In this document: positions 1 through 2,517 of the stretch, one piece after another
How the letters are laid out: every line of letters begins with the position of its first letter
How positions within the stretch are numbered: position 1 is the first letter of the stretch
NCBI GenBank assembly: GCA_020697515.1
Contig: JAIXNB010000034.1
Location: 1-5,536, forward strand
Direction: 5' to 3'
Origin: Nanobdellota archaeon
Lineage (GTDB): Archaea > Nanobdellota > Nanobdellia > Nanobdellales > Nanobdellaceae
Length of the DNA stretch: 5,536 bases
Program-made: the position numbers and the translations under genes
Notes under the pieces: model-generated
Told to the model about the DNA's origin: nothing
What the model saw: only the letters and a program-made list of their open reading frames with translations
The model's database searches: none

Positions 1-38
1 GCCCTCATAATTACCTATAGTACGCAAAGGTACTTAAA

Positions 39-335
39 ATGTATGGTGGTGTTATATATATGTGCATTGAAATTAAATTGAAAAAGGAGATTTATGACAT
101 ATTGTTGGAAAGATATAAGACACAAGAGAAGGTGGAAAAAGTCGTGAACCATCTCCTACTTGAAATTATAAAGGGAAACTTTGTACCTAAATCAGAAGTA
201 GAGAAACTTAGGAACAACTTTGAGAGGAGATATAAAAAACTAAAAAAGGAGTTAGATACTTTAAAGTCTGAGTTAATACTCTATCTACACTACTCTCGTT
301 CTGATCGTTCAGAATATCCTTTGTTTTCATCCTGA
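39..335 (+). CDS. Small hypothetical protein (98 aa), possibly a ribbon-helix-helix-like N-terminus plus a C-terminal coiled coil
   Basis: ATG at 39 and TGA at 333-335; a second in-frame Met lies at 60. The N-terminal pattern IEIKLKKEIYDILLERYK..VEKVVNHLLLEIIKG fits a short strand-helix-helix (CopG/Arc-like). SEVEKLRNNFERRYKKLKKELDTLKSEL looks like a heptad coiled coil. I recognise no family, and the fold assignment is inference only. Confidence 0.5.
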   Translation: MYGGVIYMCIEIKLKKEIYDILLERYKTQEKVEKVVNHLLLEIIKGNFVPKSEVEKLRNNFERRYKKLKKELDTLKSELILYLHYSRSDRSEYPLFSS

Positions 336-490
336 CTCCTCCCTACCCTGAAGAGCGGGACCTTCAGTTCTGACCTCCTCCTCGCCCTAAAGGGCGAGGG
401 TTCCCCGCAGGGGAACCACCATCGCACCCGTCTCACGACGGGGTCATCGGCTCGGTTGGTGTCACCGGGCCGGGCCAGACGACCCTCTAT
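336..490. ncRNA. Candidate structured RNA of unassigned family: a 66% GC island of five consecutive hairpins
   Basis: I counted 102 G+C in 155 nt (66%), against 24/95 (25%) in the adjacent spacer. Hairpins: 348-353/362-367 (6 bp); 380-387/392-399 (8 perfect bp, loop TAAA); 400-406/410-416 (7-8 bp, GGTTCCCC/GGGGAACC); 427-432/437-442 (6 bp, loop UCAC on + and GUGA on -); 448-455/465-472 (8 bp), extended by 441-447/479-485. Strand evidence conflicts, as described in the findings. Confidence 0.5.
378..404. repeat. Copy A of a 27-nt hairpin-containing repeat (CTCCTCGCCCTAAAGGGCGAGGGTTCC)
   Basis: It is 23/27 identical to 585-611 in direct orientation. The core CCTCGCCC-TAAA-GGGCGAGG is a perfect palindrome. 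Confidence 0.7.
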
Positions 491-510
491 ACCTATTTTA
501 CATCACAAAA

Positions 511-518
511 TATAAATA
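511..518. promoter_or_regulatory. TATA-like box TATAAATA (TATTTATA on the minus strand) in the AT-rich spacer
   Basis: On the minus strand it is preceded by the purine-rich CCAAAAAG (BRE-like). It would place a start site near 488-490, exactly at the edge of the GC island. On the plus strand it would place a start near 541, just before the ATG at 545. TATA-like strings are common in DNA this AT-rich, so this evidence is weak. Confidence 0.3.
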
Positions 519-538
519 CTTTTTGGTTATCGGTAGAG

Positions 539-546
539 ATTTAAAT
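539..546 (+). promoter_or_regulatory. TATA-like box ATTTAAAT
   Basis: It would place a plus-strand start near 568-570, about 10 nt upstream of the 5' arm of the 580-590/728-738 helix. The support is weak and comes from spacing only. Confidence 0.25.
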
Positions 547-584
547 GCTTCAATCAATATTGCAAGAAAAGGAAAAGAAATTTA

Positions 585-611
585 CTCCCCGCTCTAAAGG
601 GCGAGGCTTCA
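585..611. repeat. Copy B of the 27-nt repeat (CTCCCCGCTCTAAAGGGCGAGGCTTCA), a degenerate hairpin
   Basis: It is 23/27 identical to 378-404. Its stem 587-594/599-606 carries one C-A mismatch and one wobble. It is followed directly by a second hairpin, 607-612/623-628 (CTTCAT/ATGAAG), which mirrors the two-hairpin arrangement of copy A. Confidence 0.65.
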
Positions 612-670
612 TGGTTGTGAGGATGAAGAAGTTTAGATATTGTAAAATTTAATAAGGATTAAGGGATGTT

Positions 671-725
671 TCCGTCGAGGAAGGAAGTAATAGGGATATA
701 GCTCGACGGATAATGAGTCCGTCGG
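671..725. promoter_or_regulatory. Three-part direct-inverted-direct motif TCCGTCGAG / CTCGACGGA / TCCGTCGG that can form two mutually exclusive hairpins
   Basis: 671-679 pairs with 702-710 (9 bp, 22-nt loop). The same 703-710 segment pairs with 718-725 (8 bp including one wobble, 7-nt loop TAATGAG). CGACGGA-N7-TCCGTCG is also a perfect 7-bp DNA palindrome. Confidence 0.4.
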
Positions 726-845
726 TGGGGGAGTGAATCCCAGAACCTCTGTATGAAGTCATAACCGTAAAAGGAGATAGAATGGAGGAAGCTCTGTCCT
801 TGGGGTGGAGGGGCTCATACCCTTCGTTCGCAACATTAGCTAAAA

Positions 846-876: not shown

Positions 877-2517
877 ATGCAGAAAGAAAACAACTTTTCA
901 GAGTGGTATAATGAAGTAATAAGAAAAGCTGACATAATAGATGACAGATATCCTATAAAAGGAATGCCGGTTTATAAACCCTATGGATACAAAATAGTTT
1001 TAGGGATTTTAAGAATGCTTGAGGGTTTACTAGAGGAGGAAGAGTTTGAACCTATATGGTTTCCCATTTTAATTCCCTGTGAAATATTTAGTAAAGAATC
1101 TAAACATATAAAGGGTTTTGAAGAGGAGGTTTTCTGGGTTTTGGAAGGCGATCAAAAAAGGTTGATCCTTAGACCTACCTCAGAAACTGAAATGTACTAT
1201 ATGTATTCACTATGGATACAATCATACCAAGATCTGCCTATAAAATACTTCATGACGAATACTGTGTACCGATATGAGACTAAAGCAACAAAACCTCTTA
1301 TTCGTGGTAGAGAAATCCTGTGGAATGAAGCACATACTGCCCACAGGACTAAGGAGGAAGCTAAAAAGATGATAAAAAAATCCATAGATATTTATTTAAA
1401 GTTGTTCTGGGAGATTTGTTCTATTCCTCATATATGGATCATTCGACCCCAATGGGATAAATTTGCTGGAGCAGATTATACCATAGCCGCAGATACAGTT
1501 TTACCTGATGGCAGATTTTTGCAAATAGGAACTACCCATATGTTAGGGCAGAATTTTGCAAAAGCTTTTGAAATAAAATTCATGGATAAGCATCCGTATA
1601 TAAAAGTGGATGATTGTGTCTATGAAGCTGTTAGCAAAGATATGAATATAAAAATTAGATTTAAGGTACAGGATTCCTCCATAGAATATGAGATTTTTGA
1701 TCTTGAGAAGAGTTCAATTATAAGAAATGGGGAGTACAGGTTGGATAACAAAGATATTTTTATGGTTTTTGATGAAATTGTGGTTAAGGAACTAGGGAAG
1801 AACTTTTTAGAAAATCTTGACAGATATAAATATGTATGGCAAACTTCTTTTGGAGTATCTATGAGGTTTGCGGCTGCAGTAATAGCCATTCATGGAGATA
1901 ATAAGGGACTTATCTTACCATTTAGTATAGCACCGATCCAAATAGTGATAGTTCCAATATACTATGAGAACTCTCAGAGAGATTTAGTTCTAGAATATTC
2001 TAGAAAAGTATATGAATCATTGAAAACTGAGTATAGAGTTTATTTAGATGATAGGGAGGATAAAACTCCTGGATGGAAGTTTAACTATTGGGAATTCAAA
2101 GGAGTTCCATTCAGGATAGAAATTGGTCCTAGAGATATAGAGAAAAAGCGAGTTGTTGTTGCGATGAGACAAAGAGATTCTAAGGCTAAAAAAATTGTAG
2201 TAGAATTGGATAACATAAATAGTACTATAAAGCAACTAGTAGATGATTATGATAAATATATAAAAGAAGAAGCAAAAAAATATTTTGAAGAAAAGATTAT
2301 TCGAGTAGGATCATACAAAGACTTAAAAAGAGCTATATCTAAACTCAAAGTCGTAAAAGCTCCATTTTGTATGGAAGAAGGGTGTGCTAGAAAATTGAAA
2401 GAGGAATTACACGTGGAGGTTAGGGGTACAGACCTAGAACCTGAGGAAGCAGAAGGAAGATGTGTATATTGCAACAAACCTGCGAAGTATTGGGTGTATA
2501 TAGGTAAGAGTTACTGA
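877..2517 (+). CDS. proS: Prolyl-tRNA synthetase, archaeal/eukaryote-like class IIa type, with an atypical internal insertion
   Basis: ATG 877 is the first in-frame start after the TAA at 859-861. The N-terminus NFSEWYNEV..RYPIKG..Y.PYG matches archaeal ProRS as I recall it. Other matches: LRPTSET; motif 2 YRYETKATKPLIRGREILWNEAHTAH; motif 3 GVSMRFAAAVIAIHGD; the anticodon-binding domain (ILPFSIAPIQIVIVPI..KFNYWEFKGVPFRIEIGPRD); and a C-terminal Cys4 domain (C498, C503, C529, C532) ending in the conserved terminal Tyr. Confidence 0.97.
   Translation: MQKENNFSEWYNEVIRKADIIDDRYPIKGMPVYKPYGYKIVLGILRMLEGLLEEEEFEPIWFPILIPCEIFSKESKHIKGFEEEVFWVLEGDQKRLILRPTSETEMYYMYSLWIQSYQDLPIKYFMTNTVYRYETKATKPLIRGREILWNEAHTAHRTKEEAKKMIKKSIDIYLKLFWEICSIPHIWIIRPQWDKFAGADYTIAADTVLPDGRFLQIGTTHMLGQNFAKAFEIKFMDKHPYIKVDDCVYEAVSKDMNIKIRFKVQDSSIEYEIFDLEKSSIIRNGEYRLDNKDIFMVFDEIVVKELGKNFLENLDRYKYVWQTSFGVSMRFAAAVIAIHGDNKGLILPFSIAPIQIVIVPIYYENSQRDLVLEYSRKVYESLKTEYRVYLDDREDKTPGWKFNYWEFKGVPFRIEIGPRDIEKKRVVVAMRQRDSKAKKIVVELDNINSTIKQLVDDYDKYIKEEAKKYFEEKIIRVGSYKDLKRAISKLKVVKAPFCMEEGCARKLKEELHVEVRGTDLEPEEAEGRCVYCNKPAKYWVYIGKSY

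What the first reader, a model, noticed from the sequence alone, without database searches (positions are those of the whole stretch)
336..490. A 66% GC, hairpin-dense island in AT-rich DNA: an unassigned structured RNA starting right after the ORF1 stop
I counted 102/155 G+C here, against 24/95 in the next 95 nt. In AT-rich thermophilic archaea, GC-rich islands are the classic footprint of structural RNA genes; GC-content screens found novel RNAs this way in Methanocaldococcus and Pyrococcus. The island consists almost entirely of five back-to-back hairpins (348-367, 380-399, 400-416, 427-442, 441-485), several with perfect 6-8 bp stems. I looked for and did not find a T-loop (GTTCRAATC) or cloverleaf, 5S similarity, RNase P CR-I (GGAAAGUCC on either strand), the SRP helix-8 signature (GGAA...AGCA), a C/D pair at sensible spacing, or an H/ACA pocket plus ACA. 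The strand is unresolved. Evidence for minus: a GNRA loop (GUGA at 436-433); the outer helix 441-448/478-485 has a G-U on minus but an A-C mismatch on plus; and a BRE/TATA-like CCAAAAAG-TATTTATA (526-511) would start transcription at about 488-490, the exact island edge. Evidence for plus: U452-G468 is a wobble only on plus; and T-tracts at 496-499 and 520-524 could terminate an ORF1 transcript, making this a highly structured 3' UTR.
Basis: partly seen in the sequence, partly recalled or inferred. Interest (0 to 1): 0.7.

Follow-up and report, generated by a model that had tools for sequence, protein, structure and literature searches.

The report
HgcC RNA in a mini-transposon
The GC-rich island is a new copy of the long-known archaeal HgcC RNA, sitting at the right end of a small degraded IS200/IS605 transposon, where it most likely acts as the guide RNA (ωRNA) for the transposon nuclease TnpB.

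Summary
In detail: G+C is 102/155 at 336-490 against 24/95 in the next 95 nt. The RNA is not unassigned. Rfam places 357-487 (minus strand) in HgcC (RF00062) at 88.9 bits (threshold 50), E=6e-20.

On the minus strand, a conserved BRE/TATA box (526-511) precedes a 120-nt scaffold (489-370). Covariation supports three of its helices. Similarity to about 120 archaeal loci always stops at ...GGTCAG (370).

The RNA is the right end of a 247-nt IS200/IS605-type element (616→370):
- TCAC target site, then the left-end hairpin (606-587).
- A 22-codon tnpB remnant on the opposite strand.
- The promoter, then HgcC.

A sister assembly (L126) still carries the tnpB. In 8 of 8 loci of that TnpB clade, which includes P. 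furiosus PF1918, HgcC lies head-to-head with tnpB. The hairpin-1 loop (CUGRCC) is complementary to the terminal GGUCAG. This matches the position of the guide-adjacent pseudoknot in the ISDra2 ωRNA.

Best reading (inferred, not shown): HgcC is a separately promoted ωRNA, here orphaned in a Nanoarchaeota-like host. It is a new member of a known family, and the possible interest lies at family level.

The parts
370..489 (-). HgcC RNA scaffold (about 120 nt). It runs from the GAGGG start to the invariant ...GGAGGAGGUCAG end, which is also the right end (RE) of the transposon.
   Evidence: The Rfam RF00062 hit covers 357-487 (-) at 88.9 bits, E=5.7e-20, full model 1-130. Blastn similarity to about 120 loci always ends at 369/370. 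In the 12-copy alignment, conservation ends at GGTCAG.
511..526 (-). Archaeal promoter of HgcC: BRE CCAAAAAG (526-519) plus TATA TATTTATA (518-511). The predicted start is near 487-489. The same TATA may also serve the divergent tnpB in the full-length element (inference).
   Evidence: A CGAAA-nn-TTTTTAT-like box lies at about the same distance upstream of the RNA in most of 12 copies from unrelated contexts (weak or absent in L104 and L133). In L126 the tnpB ATG (532 or 541) lies 14-23 nt beyond the TATA on the other strand.
467..485 (-). Hairpin H1 (GGGUCG / CGGCCC) with loop U-CUGGCC. Loop bases 478-473 form the candidate 5' strand of a pseudoknot.
   Evidence: Three H1 positions change on both sides while staying paired; the innermost pair splits GC:CG 6:6. 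The only difference between the window and L126 across 528 nt (position 472) turns C-G into U·G.
370..375 (-). Terminal GGUCAG. It is the candidate 3' strand of the pseudoknot (positions -6 to -1 relative to the flank). Its last four bases, TCAG, are the right-end cleavage site (CR).
   Evidence: It is complementary to the H1 loop CUGRCC in 71 of 72 cells, but both sides are invariant. ISDra2 pairs -6..-2 with -102..-106. In IS608, CR lies 10 nt 3' of the hairpin foot.
427..442 (-). Hairpin H3 (CCCGUC-GUGA-GACGGG). It is the dispensable middle module.
   Evidence: It is in the Rfam consensus. The module is missing in 5 of 12 natural copies (L059, L085, L104, L130b, L133) and reduced in L129 and L131.
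400..418 (-). Hairpin H4 (GGUUCCCC-UGC-GGGGAACC). Its 3' end, GAAC, occupies the position of the IS608 right guide tetranucleotide (GR).
   Evidence: All 81 cells scored in H4 are paired, and two positions carry compensatory changes. GR=GAAC with CR=TCAG parallels GAAT/TCAA in IS608.
380..399 (-). Hairpin H5 (CCUCGCCC-UUUA-GGGCGAGG). This is the subterminal right-end hairpin (IPR) of the transposon.
   Evidence: Three positions carry compensatory changes. The same hairpin plus tail sits at the 3' end of tnpB genes in 39 of 121 loci.
350..369 (-). The flank just past the right end (AACUGAAGGUCCCGCUCUUC). This is the guide position if HgcC is an ωRNA. Its length and 3' end are unknown.
   Evidence: The flanks of all 12 copies are unrelated. 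There is no run of five or more T on this strand before about 250-233.
337..366 (-). A degenerate second right-end-like module (CCCGCUC-UUCA-GGGUAGGG-AGGAGUCAG) in the flank.
   Evidence: It is repeat family D1, copy 339-364, 62% identical to 378-403, and can be read directly in the sequence. Its significance is weak and it was not followed up.
581..616 (-). Left end (LE) of the element, with hairpin CCUCGCCC-UUUA-GAGCGGGG (606-587). GAAG in front of the hairpin occupies the left guide position (GL).
   Evidence: It has 1 mismatch in 22 to the left-end consensus taken from canonical elements. The near-identical assembly L001 diverges from the window exactly at 616/617.
617..620 (-). TCAC (GTGA on the plus strand). 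This is the target and cleavage tetranucleotide (CL) and the predicted TAM. It is flanking DNA and is shared with L001.
   Evidence: TCAC precedes the left end in all ten copies examined. It lies 19 nt from the hairpin foot in six relatives but only 10 nt in the window. IS608 has TTAC at 19 nt.
529..594 (+). Remnant of the last 22 codons of an inverted tnpB (GRDLNASINIARKGKEIYSPL*), including the RuvC-III Asp motif. The deletion joint is at 528|529.
   Evidence: L126 is 99.8% identical to window 1-528 and then continues into a TnpB N-terminus that is 77% identical to L032 TnpB. Read by eye, window 529-560 is close to L032 ATCGATAGGGATTTAAATGCTGCAATAAATAT. On its own, tblastn gives only E=0.3-4.

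Best explanation
**What is shown.**
- Window 370-489 (minus strand) is a copy of the known archaeal HgcC RNA (Rfam RF00062). A BRE/TATA promoter lies at 526-511.
- The RNA forms the right end of a 247-nt, tnpB-deleted derivative of an IS200/IS605-family insertion sequence (616→370 on the minus strand). In order, the element has: the TCAC target site, the left-end hairpin, a 22-codon tnpB remnant on the opposite strand, the promoter, the HgcC scaffold, and the right end ...TCAG.
- In this element lineage the tnpB gene is inverted relative to the transposon ends. HgcC therefore cannot be cut out of the tnpB mRNA 3' end, as in canonical elements, and it carries its own promoter.

**What is inferred.**
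- HgcC is the ωRNA-type guide RNA of this TnpB clade.
- The scaffold folds into H1, H4 and H5, with an optional middle hairpin. The H1 loop pairs with the terminal GGUCAG to form a pseudoknot next to the guide.
- Transcription runs across the right-end boundary, so the 3' flank (369→about 350) becomes the guide.
- TnpB would have to be supplied in trans, because this copy has lost its gene. It would cut DNA that carries TCAC followed by the guide match, which is the vacated donor site. That would favour retention of the element by homing.
- In this copy the RNA gene looks intact, but the left end is 9 nt shorter than in relatives. The copy may be an orphan that is still transcribed.
For: **Family membership.** The Rfam hit scores 88.9 bits against a threshold of 50, E=5.7e-20, on the minus strand over the full model.

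**Promoter.** A BRE/TATA-like box lies at about the same distance upstream in most of 12 copies (weak or absent in L104 and L133).

**Structure.** Compensatory changes occur in H1 (3 positions), H4 (2) and H5 (3).

**Sharp element boundary.** Similarity to about 120 loci ends at 369/370, and the flanks are unrelated.

**IS200/IS605 anatomy on the HgcC strand.**
- The left-end hairpin at 606-587 has 1 mismatch in 22 to the left-end consensus.
- TCAC precedes the left end in all ten copies examined, 19 nt from the hairpin in six relatives.
- The right end stops 10 nt after its hairpin, in TCAG. IS608 has the same 19 nt / 10 nt geometry.
- The guide/cleavage pairs are GAAG/TCAC and GAAC/TCAG. They differ by one complementary base each and parallel GAAT/TCAA in IS608.

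**Link to tnpB.**
- L126, from the same population, is 99.8% identical to window 1-528 and carries the tnpB N-terminus head-to-head with HgcC.
- HgcC at or above the Rfam threshold (54-111 bits) lies on the opposite strand just upstream of tnpB in 8 of 8 loci of this clade, at 45-100% TnpB identity. The clade includes P. kukulkanii and P. furiosus PF1918.
- The RuvC residues D/E/D are intact in the clade.
- In five of these loci (L128-L131, L133) the next host gene starts 4-16 nt after the tnpB stop, which leaves no room for a 3' ωRNA.

**Guide-RNA-like features.**
- The same right-end module lies at the 3' end of tnpB in 39 of 121 loci. Six of six tested upstream ORFs are OrfB_IS605 and/or Cas12f1-like TNB proteins.
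- HgcC and the haloarchaeal tnpB sotRNA model sot0042 both hit those 3' ends.
- The pseudoknot candidate pairs -109..-104 with -1..-6 and abuts H1. ISDra2 pairs -106..-102 with -2..-6, stacked on stem 1, a feature described as conserved in Cas12 guide RNAs.

**Expression in other species.** HgcC RNAs are seen by dRNA-seq in T. kodakarensis, three of them from start sites inside transposase genes. The P. furiosus HgcC is reported as antisense to a transposase gene.

**Insertion status.** L001 and the 83%-ProRS relative L135 both have 23S rRNA next to ProRS. The window's left part is therefore an insertion, with its junction exactly at TCAC|left end.
Against: - No binding, cleavage or RNA data exist for HgcC with TnpB.
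- Both pseudoknot strands are invariant, so there is no covariation. GGTCAG is in any case constrained as the DNA cleavage site for TnpA.
- Canonical same-strand tnpB copies lack the H1/CUGRCC feature (0 of 33). They also fall below the Rfam HgcC threshold. Clear homology to established ωRNA positions is therefore limited to the terminal module of about 45 nt, which TnpA also needs.
- The window and its 17.8-kb sister scaffold encode no intact TnpB.
- The flank that would be the guide does not match the sequence after TCAC in the empty-site allele L001. I aligned these by eye and counted about 8 of 20 matches. The simple homing picture is therefore not demonstrated at this locus.
- The window's left end has TCAC at 10 nt instead of 19 nt.
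- There is no oligo-T terminator near the guide.
- The three assemblies disagree at 528/529 and 616/617. An assembly join across repeats cannot be excluded.
Confidence: 0.6

Rival explanations
1. Transposon-end relic. The conserved sequence exists only because TnpA needs the right-end DNA hairpin and cleavage site. Any RNA is an incidental by-product, and this copy is decaying junk.
For: H5 plus the tail is the part shared with all other tnpB elements. GGTCAG, GAAC and the hairpin are explained by IS608-type DNA rules. The tnpB gene is deleted and the left end is shortened.
Against: A dedicated BRE/TATA-like box is found at about the same distance in most of the 12 copies. H1 and H4 covary although they are not TnpA-binding elements. 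The scaffold is 68% GC in a 34% GC window. Solo copies in three phyla retain 75-89% identity over the full 120 nt. HgcC transcripts are detected in other species.
Confidence: 0.15
2. Domesticated or regulatory small RNA. HgcC acts on host or transposon gene expression without guiding a nuclease. It could act as an antisense RNA reading into the ORF1 3' end, as a regulator of tnpB through the shared promoter, or through its GGAGG-rich tail.
For: The transcript would run antisense into ORF1 (39-335), because no terminator precedes it. Overexpression of a related sotRNA and of a PATE-derived RNA improved growth of H. salinarum. Many copies have no tnpB nearby (28 of 121). The tail GAGGAGGU resembles a Shine-Dalgarno sequence (direct reading of the sequence).
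Against: HgcC does not overlap the tnpB mRNA; the two are head-to-head about 50 nt apart. Targets would differ at every copy because the flanks are unrelated. Co-occurrence with one TnpB clade is strict.
Confidence: 0.15
3. Plus-strand reading. The island is a highly structured 3' UTR or terminator region of ORF1.
For: It starts right after the ORF1 stop codon. The plus-strand fold has z=-2.99. T-tracts lie at 496-499 and 520-524.
Against: The covariance model matches the minus strand only. Homologues lie in unrelated contexts without ORF1. The promoter-like box is on the minus strand. G-U pairs in H1 and H5 exist only on the minus strand.
Confidence: 0.03
4. A novel, unassigned structured RNA family.
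For: That is correct as far as it goes.
Against: There is a full-length hit to RF00062 at 88.9 bits.
Confidence: 0.01

Closest known systems
HgcC family RNA (Rfam RF00062; found in the Klein, Misulovin and Eddy 2002 GC-content screen of M. jannaschii and Pyrococcus)
   Same: The model matches over its full length at 88.9 bits. The helices H1, H3, H4 and H5 are the same, as are the conserved linker GAUGACACCAACCG and the tail GAGGAGGUCAG. It is a GC-rich island in an AT-rich thermophilic archaeon.
   Different: Nothing essential differs. The H1 loop has CUGGCC instead of CUGACC, which gives one G·U in the pseudoknot candidate. The host is a Nanoarchaeota-like DPANN lineage. The function of the family is described as unknown or unresolved in the literature I could reach.
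TnpB ωRNA / reRNA (ISDra2 paradigm) and the haloarchaeal sotRNAs (Rfam sot0042)
   Same: It is encoded at the transposon right end and reads outward. The scaffold ends exactly at the element boundary and is followed by copy-specific flank. A candidate pseudoknot joins the last 6 nt of the scaffold to a site about 105 nt upstream, next to the first stem. It co-occurs strictly with one tnpB clade. sot0042 gives a weak hit on the same strand (18 bits).
   Different: It does not overlap the tnpB 3' end and lies on the opposite strand from tnpB. It has its own BRE/TATA promoter. No biochemical evidence exists. In the window, tnpB is deleted.
IS200/IS605-family elements (IS608 paradigm) and their tnpB-less derivatives (PATEs)
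   Same: Both subterminal hairpins lie on one strand. The target tetranucleotide (TCAC) sits outside the left end, 19 nt from the hairpin in relatives. The right end stops 10 nt after its hairpin (TCAG). The guide/cleavage tetranucleotide logic holds (GAAG/TCAC, GAAC/TCAG). There are no terminal inverted repeats. The miniature left-end-plus-right-end form resembles a PATE.
   Different: The tnpB gene is inverted relative to the ends. In three relatives (L128, L129, L131) its stop codon TGA is the complement of the TCA in the TCAC target. No tnpA is present. The window's left end is 9 nt shorter. The window is not a simple insertion relative to the empty-site allele.
TldR and other orphan or repurposed ωRNA systems
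   Same: It is a guide-like RNA that can stand alone without an adjacent nuclease gene.
   Different: There is no evidence of a nuclease-dead partner or of a host promoter target. The associated TnpB clade keeps the D/E/D residues.

Membership tests
HgcC (Rfam RF00062) | Covariance-model score at or above the curated gathering threshold (50 bits) over the full model | tested here: met
   88.9 bits, E=5.7e-20, model positions 1-130 of 130, window 357-487 minus strand.
HgcC (Rfam RF00062) | Consensus helices present and maintained by compensatory change | tested here: met
   In 12 copies, H1 has 3, H4 has 2 and H5 has 3 positions with both-sided changes that keep the pair. RNAalifold also recovers H4 and H5.
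HgcC (Rfam RF00062) | Expressed as a discrete small RNA | not testable with these tools
   Only a conserved promoter and published expression in other species are available.
TnpB ωRNA | Encoded at the transposon right end; the scaffold ends at the element boundary and is followed by a non-conserved guide | tested here: met
   Similarity to about 120 loci stops at 369/370. GGTCAG is invariant and the flanks are unrelated. The right-end geometry matches IS608.
TnpB ωRNA | Overlaps the 3' end of tnpB on the same strand | tested here: not met
   In this lineage tnpB is on the opposite strand, head-to-head. In the window only 22 codons remain. Membership in the canonical sense therefore fails. The claim that it works like an ωRNA is inference.
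TnpB ωRNA | Pseudoknot formed by the guide-proximal scaffold nucleotides, stacking on stem 1 | tested here: inconclusive
   CUGRCC and GGUCAG are complementary in 71 of 72 cells, and their positions (-109..-104 with -1..-6) parallel ISDra2. Both strands are invariant, so there is no covariation. The feature is absent from canonical copies.
TnpB ωRNA | Co-occurrence with a catalytically competent TnpB | tested here: met
   At family level, 8 of 8 loci of the clade carry HgcC and D/E/D are conserved. There is no intact tnpB in the window or in L001, but L126 has it at the same locus.
TnpB ωRNA | Binds TnpB and directs TAM- and guide-dependent DNA cleavage | not testable with these tools
   This needs biochemistry or genetics.
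IS200/IS605 element (miniature, PATE-like) | Similar subterminal hairpins at both ends on the same strand, with no terminal inverted repeats | tested here: met
   Hairpins at 606-587 and 399-380 (minus strand) are 88% identical direct repeats and match the left-end and right-end consensus.
IS200/IS605 element (miniature, PATE-like) | Cleavage-site geometry: CL outside the element 19 nt 5' of the left hairpin, CR inside the element 10 nt 3' of the right hairpin | tested here: inconclusive
   The right end fits: 10 nt ending in TCAG. At the left end, TCAC is at 19 nt in L128, L129, L131, L133, L043 and L085, but at only 10 nt in the window.
IS200/IS605 element (miniature, PATE-like) | Guide tetranucleotide 5' of each hairpin foot matching its cleavage tetranucleotide | tested here: met
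   GL GAAG with CL TCAC and GR GAAC with CR TCAG. The single differences are complementary. IS608 has GR GAAT with CR TCAA.
IS200/IS605 element (miniature, PATE-like) | Insertion 3' of the target tetranucleotide; an empty site exists | tested here: inconclusive
   L001, and synteny in L135, show the ancestral 23S-ProRS junction. The window diverges exactly after TCAC. The other junction was not recovered, and the right-end flank differs from the L001 sequence.
IS200/IS605 element (miniature, PATE-like) | Y1 (HUH) TnpA transposase in cis or in trans | not tested
   No tnpA was seen in the window or in L001, and the genome is not available.
tRNA / 5S / SRP / RNase P / C/D or H/ACA sRNA | Match to the corresponding covariance model | tested here: not met
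   ARAGORN finds nothing. No such Rfam hit occurs in 300-620, even at E up to 10.

The most novel reading that the evidence does not exclude
The whole HgcC family, an orphan RNA since 2002, is the dedicated guide RNA of a distinct TnpB clade that includes P. furiosus PF1918. In that clade the nuclease gene is inverted inside the IS200/IS605 element. The ωRNA has therefore become a free-standing gene with its own promoter, placed back-to-back with tnpB around one TATA box. It survives as promoter-plus-RNA mini-elements after tnpB is lost. This would be a natural case of a TnpB guide RNA uncoupled from the nuclease mRNA. It would also give a compact thermophilic ωRNA scaffold of about 85-120 nt with a predicted TCAC TAM. 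I found no paper in the accessible library that states this.
Probability: 0.5. Interest if true: 0.65.

Novelty: new member of a known kind. Interest (0 to 1): 0.42.

Why it matters
**For the scan.** The result is mostly deflationary. The "unassigned RNA" is a textbook Rfam family that a single cmscan identifies.

**At family level.**
- The work ties HgcC to a specific TnpB clade and to exact IS200/IS605 end anatomy: the TCAC target, the 19 nt / 10 nt geometry and matched guide/cleavage tetranucleotides.
- It proposes a concrete, testable function for an RNA described as "function unknown" for two decades.
- If correct, it gives TnpB researchers a naturally separate, promoter-driven, short thermostable ωRNA with a predicted TAM.
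- It would also explain why HgcC genes appear as solitary GC islands in AT-rich hyperthermophile genomes, including inside horizontally acquired regions.

**For DPANN genomes.** It shows such an element present in some, and absent from other, near-identical assemblies of a Nanoarchaeota-like archaeon.

Tried and rejected
- **tRNA/tmRNA scan.** Nothing found.
- **Other Rfam hits in the window.** All are far below threshold and were treated as chance: CRISPR-DR30, miRNAs, snR36 and IS009.
- **Rfam at gathering threshold on 8 tnpB loci.** No HgcC was called. Relaxed thresholds were needed.
- **tblastn of 14 TnpB proteins against the window.** Only weak hits came back (E of 0.3 or worse). The second half of that call was unusable because the database file held all loci; it was redone. 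The tnpB remnant became convincing only through L126 and L032.
- **Same-strand tnpB upstream of HgcC in the window.** None exists.
- **H1/CUGRCC motif in canonical tnpB 3' ends.** Absent in 0 of 33, against a 0.6% background. I therefore dropped the claim that the whole scaffold is homologous to canonical ωRNAs.
- **Empty-site test.**
  - ProRS relatives in JGI metagenomes were too distant (43-51% identity) and have a tRNA upstream instead.
  - L001 matches only on the left-end side.
  - L136 and L137 (61% ProRS) have different synteny and no similarity.
- **MAFFT register errors in H1.** These made miss H1. I rebuilt a spliced, anchored alignment by script (two searches were script errors).
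- **Klein et al. 2002 (PMC124278).** Not held in the library.
- **Region 650-860 as a second RNA.** Fold z-scores are -1.75 and -0.89 and there is no Rfam hit, so it was not pursued.
- **Minus-strand ORFs 290-436 and 208-330.** Judged spurious: they are short and overlap the RNA or ORF1.
Full report
**1. The observation**

The island is real. A 100-nt sliding window gives 0.63-0.65 here against flanks of about 0.30.

Three of the five reported hairpins are real conserved helices: 380-399, 400-416/418 and 427-442. The proposed long helix 441-448/478-485 is not supported. The conserved helix there is a local hairpin, 467-472/480-485. The hairpin at 348-367 lies outside the conserved RNA.

Folding energy is only modestly better than shuffles on either strand, with z = -2.05 on minus and -2.99 on plus. 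Thermodynamics alone therefore decides neither function nor strand.

**2. Identity**

A covariance-model scan of the window against Rfam 15 places 357-487, minus strand, in RF00062 (HgcC family RNA). The score is 88.9 bits against a gathering score of 50, E=5.7e-20, over the full model. There is no tRNA, and no other family comes close.

The minus-strand arguments were correct. The BRE/TATA proposed at 526-511 (CCAAAAAG-TATTTATA) has a CGAAA-nn-TTTTTAT-like counterpart at about the same distance upstream of the RNA start in most of 12 HgcC copies, although the surrounding DNA is otherwise unrelated. The box is weak or absent in L104 and L133.

**3. What HgcC is attached to**

The literature gave the lead.
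- A 2015 study of sense-overlapping transcripts at the 3' end of IS1341-type tnpB genes noted a shared tetraloop motif in HgcC.
- In T. kodakarensis, three of five HgcC RNAs start inside transposase genes. The P. furiosus HgcC is reported as antisense to one.

I scanned one genome per prokaryotic species with a degenerate pattern for the HgcC 3' module (GGNNCCNNCGNNNTTNANNNCGNNGAGGAGGTCAG).
Almost all are archaeal and span Thermococci, Archaeoglobi, Thermoprotei, Nitrososphaeria, Marsarchaeota and others. Many genomes have several copies.
- Of 121 hits, 39 have TnpB-coding DNA on the same strand running into the module, which is the canonical ωRNA position.
- 28 have no tnpB within 1.5 kb or more, and 51 have too little sequence to tell.
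- Six of six tested upstream ORFs carry OrfB_IS605 and/or the Cas12f1-like TNB domain.
- Blastn of the window against all loci shows that similarity always stops at window 369/370, the end of GGTCAG. That is a sharp element boundary.

**4. Anatomy of the window element**

Three near-identical assemblies disagree around the island.
- L001 (17.8 kb) equals the window only from 617 onward, at 99.9%. To its left lie the promoter and 5' end of a 23S rRNA gene.
- L126 equals window 1-528, at 99.8%. It then continues with a plus-strand ORF that is the N-terminal half of a TnpB. That ORF is 77% identical over 215 residues to the 392-aa TnpB of locus L032, whose TNB domain scores E=1e-23.
- Window 529-594 (+) encodes GRDLNASINIARKGKEIYSPL*, the RuvC-III end of the same protein. 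Compare L032 ...DRDLNAAINITIKG.

The window therefore holds a copy whose tnpB has been deleted internally, with the joint at 528|529.

On the minus strand, 613-585 reads GAAGC-CTCGCCC-TTTA-GAGCGGGGA. This has one mismatch in 22 to the left-end hairpin consensus I derived from canonical elements, where it lies 70-100 nt upstream of tnpB on the tnpB strand.

Read on the HgcC strand, the element has these parts in order:
- TCAC (620-617), which is flanking DNA.
- The left end (616 to about 581).
- The inverted tnpB remnant.
- BRE/TATA (526-511).
- The HgcC scaffold (489-370), ending at the right end.

**5. It follows IS200/IS605 rules**

In IS608, left-end cleavage is 3' of TTAC, 19 nt 5' of the left hairpin foot. 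Right-end cleavage is at TCAA, 10 nt 3' of the right hairpin foot. The guide tetranucleotides just 5' of each hairpin (GL AAAG, GR GAAT) recognise the cleavage sites.

In the HgcC elements:
- TCAC precedes the left end in all ten copies examined. It lies exactly 19 nt from the hairpin foot in L128, L129, L131, L133, L043 and L085.
- The right end stops 10 nt after its hairpin, in TCAG.
- The tetranucleotides before the hairpins are GAAG on the left (with TCAC) and GAAC on the right (with TCAG). The single G/C difference is complementary to the single C/G difference between the cleavage sites. This parallels GAAT/TCAA in IS608.

This geometry holds only when the HgcC strand is taken as the top strand. 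It follows that tnpB is inverted relative to the ends in this lineage. In L128, L129 and L131 the tnpB stop codon TGA is the complement of the TCA in the TCAC target.

The window's own left end is atypical. TCAC is only 10 nt from the hairpin, and the outer stem seen in relatives is missing.

**6. A clade-wide architecture**

Homologues of the L032 TnpB include P. furiosus PF1918 and proteins from P. kukulkanii and Thermococcus. I fetched the context for seven of them.
- Every locus with upstream sequence has an HgcC hit at or above the Rfam threshold (54-111 bits). It lies on the opposite strand, with its 5' end roughly 50-80 nt from the tnpB start.
- These loci are L129, L130, L131, L132, L133, L104 and L126 plus L032, which makes 8 of 8 across 45-100% protein identity.
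- In five of the fetched loci (L128-L131, L133) the next host gene begins 4-16 nt after the tnpB stop, so there is no room for a 3' ωRNA.
- The more distant L134 (40% identity) has no HgcC.

The solo Archaeoglobaceae copies L043 and L085 have the left-end hairpin fused 78 nt upstream of HgcC, directly onto the promoter. L104 has the same left end 1147 nt upstream, with the inverted tnpB in between. Promoter-plus-HgcC mini-elements like the window's are therefore recurrent deletion derivatives.

The clade keeps the RuvC residues D (GVDFG), E (IVIEKL) and D (DRDLNAA). The canonical same-strand TnpBs that share the same transposon ends are only 21-29% identical to it. L082, L075 and L051 belong to the lineage with the glutamate moved next to the zinc finger.

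**7. RNA structure**

In 12 full-length copies, conservation covers the promoter box, then GAGGG...GGTCAG, and the flanks are unrelated.

MAFFT mis-registered hairpin 1, so I anchored and spliced the copies by script.
- H1 has three positions with both-sided changes. At the innermost pair, GC and CG split 6:6.
- H4 has two such positions and H5 has three.
- The middle hairpin is absent in five natural copies, so it is dispensable.

RNAalifold exposed a complementarity that the Rfam consensus structure shown does not pair. The H1 loop CUGRCC pairs with the terminal GGUCAG in 71 of 72 cells. Together with H1 this forms an H-type pseudoknot. In window numbering, -109..-104 pairs with -1..-6, immediately before the flank.

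In the ISDra2 TnpB-ωRNA structure, -6..-2 pairs with -102..-106 to form a pseudoknot that stacks on stem 1. The authors describe this pseudoknot as conserved among Cas12 guide RNAs. The positional match is close.

There are two caveats. Both strands are invariant, so there is no covariation. GGTCAG is also constrained at the DNA level as the cleavage site. In addition, canonical same-strand copies lack the H1/CUGRCC feature, 0 of 33 against a background of 0.6%. Secure homology to canonical ωRNA regions is therefore limited to the terminal module of about 45 nt, which TnpA also needs.

**8. Mechanism**

Shown:
- An HgcC gene with a promoter, lying at the right end of a miniature IS200/IS605 element.
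- Strict linkage of this RNA family to one TnpB clade.

Inferred:
- HgcC is that clade's ωRNA.
- Because tnpB is inverted, the RNA cannot be processed from the tnpB mRNA, so it has its own promoter.
- Transcription crosses the right end, so the flank (369→about 350, AACUGAAGGUCCCGCUCUUC) becomes the guide.
- TnpB, supplied here only in trans, would cut TCAC-adjacent DNA that matches the guide. This is the homing and retention role described for bacterial TnpB (background in the abstract of PMC10690162, listed).

Against a simple version at this locus: the sequence following TCAC in the empty-site allele L001 does not match the window's right-end flank. I aligned these by eye and counted about 8 of 20 matches.

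Rivals:
- An inert transposon-end relic (0.15).
- A regulatory or domesticated small RNA (0.15).
- A plus-strand 3' UTR of ORF1 (0.03).

**9. Host and insertion status**

The closest named ProRS relatives, at about 55% identity, are Nanopusillaceae, Candidatus Nanoclepta and other Nanoarchaeota. The host is therefore a thermophilic DPANN archaeon.

L135, a relative with 83% identical ProRS, has the 23S rRNA 5' end directly upstream of ProRS, as L001 does. The 23S-ProRS arrangement is therefore ancestral. Window 1-616 is inserted DNA whose junction falls exactly at TCAC|left end.

The other junction was not recovered. Both the window and L126 start at the same base, which suggests a branch in the assembly graph there. 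A chimeric join across repeat copies cannot be excluded.

**10. Verdict**

The finding is a new copy of a known RNA family inside a known kind of mobile element.

What may be new, within the literature I could reach, is the family-level reading. On that reading, HgcC is a free-standing, promoter-driven ωRNA of an inverted-tnpB clade. This rests on inference and needs the experiments listed under next steps.

Noticed in passing
window 1-616 versus L001 9284-9442 and L126 529-1491: Three near-identical assemblies differ exactly at element landmarks. L001 replaces window 1-616 with the 23S rRNA promoter. L126 replaces window 529 onward with a full tnpB. The window and L126 contigs both start at the same base, 38 nt upstream of ORF1. 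The left junction of the inserted DNA was not found, so either the insert is larger than the IS or one contig is chimeric.
   Followed up: partly
window 337-366 (minus strand): A degenerate second right-end-like module (hairpin CCCGCUC-UUCA-GGGUAGGG plus AGGAGUCAG) starts 4 nt past the HgcC right end (its own end lies 33 nt beyond it). Its terminal CTGA overlaps the ORF1 stop codon (333-335). It may be a relic of an older insertion.
   Followed up: no
window 326-336 and 617-627: An 11-nt inverted repeat with one mismatch (TTCATCCTGAC / GTGAGGATGAA) brackets the whole HgcC element plus the old right-end remnant. Each arm includes a cleavage-site-like tetranucleotide (TCAG or TCAC). It could be chance; the repeat finder lists ten other inverted pairs of 10-20 nt in the same 1 kb.
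   Followed up: no
window 655-830: A second, moderately GC-rich stretch (0.44-0.50) lies upstream of ProRS. It has a perfect 9-bp hairpin (672-680/703-711) with a 22-nt loop. It has no Rfam hit, and fold z-scores are -1.75 and -0.89. It is shared with L001 but absent from the 83%-ProRS relative L135.
   Followed up: partly
window 39-335 (+), ORF1: A 98-aa lysine- and glutamate-rich protein with no Pfam family (best E=0.003). It was found only in the window and L126, on the inserted side of the junction. It may be cargo or part of a larger mobile segment.
   Followed up: partly
window 877-2517 (+), ProRS: The prolyl-tRNA synthetase is 546 aa. Only Nanoarchaeota-like homologues (540-590 aa) align over its full length. 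Typical archaeal ProRS proteins (about 480 aa) give a best local alignment covering about 44% of it. This suggests a lineage-specific insertion.
   Followed up: no
L012 547-599: A C/D-box sRNA (Rfam sR46, 70.9 bits) sits exactly at the 5' start of a canonical Thermococcus tnpB ORF.
   Followed up: no
L085 2648-2836: A short-form solo HgcC in an Archaeoglobaceae MAG is followed within about 20 nt of its right end by a tRNA gene. The guide position would therefore read into the tRNA.
   Followed up: no
L082, L075, L051 versus L032 and P0008-P0037 (alignment A3): Two TnpB lineages that are only 21-26% identical share nearly identical left-end and right-end hairpins and the GAGGAGGTCAG terminus. 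One has the classical RuvC-II glutamate and the other has it moved next to the zinc finger. This suggests both depend on the same TnpA family in trans.
   Followed up: partly
L130 75-206 and 1354-1450: One 4-kb stretch carries two HgcC copies. One is a long form standing alone between host genes. The other is a short form head-to-head with tnpB. Their terminal hairpins have the same sequence (CUUCCCGC/GCGGGAAG), which differs from the consensus by compensatory changes.
   Followed up: no
L001 14508-14751 (just beyond the window's right edge): An archaeal RNase P RNA scores 86.1 bits, barely above its threshold of 84, on the minus strand downstream of the FEN-1 gene.
   Followed up: no
L126 1230-1491: The end of this contig is a perfect inverted duplication, picked up as spurious plant miRNA hits on both strands. 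This is a typical assembler artefact, so the tnpB sequence in L126 is reliable only to about position 1330.
   Followed up: no
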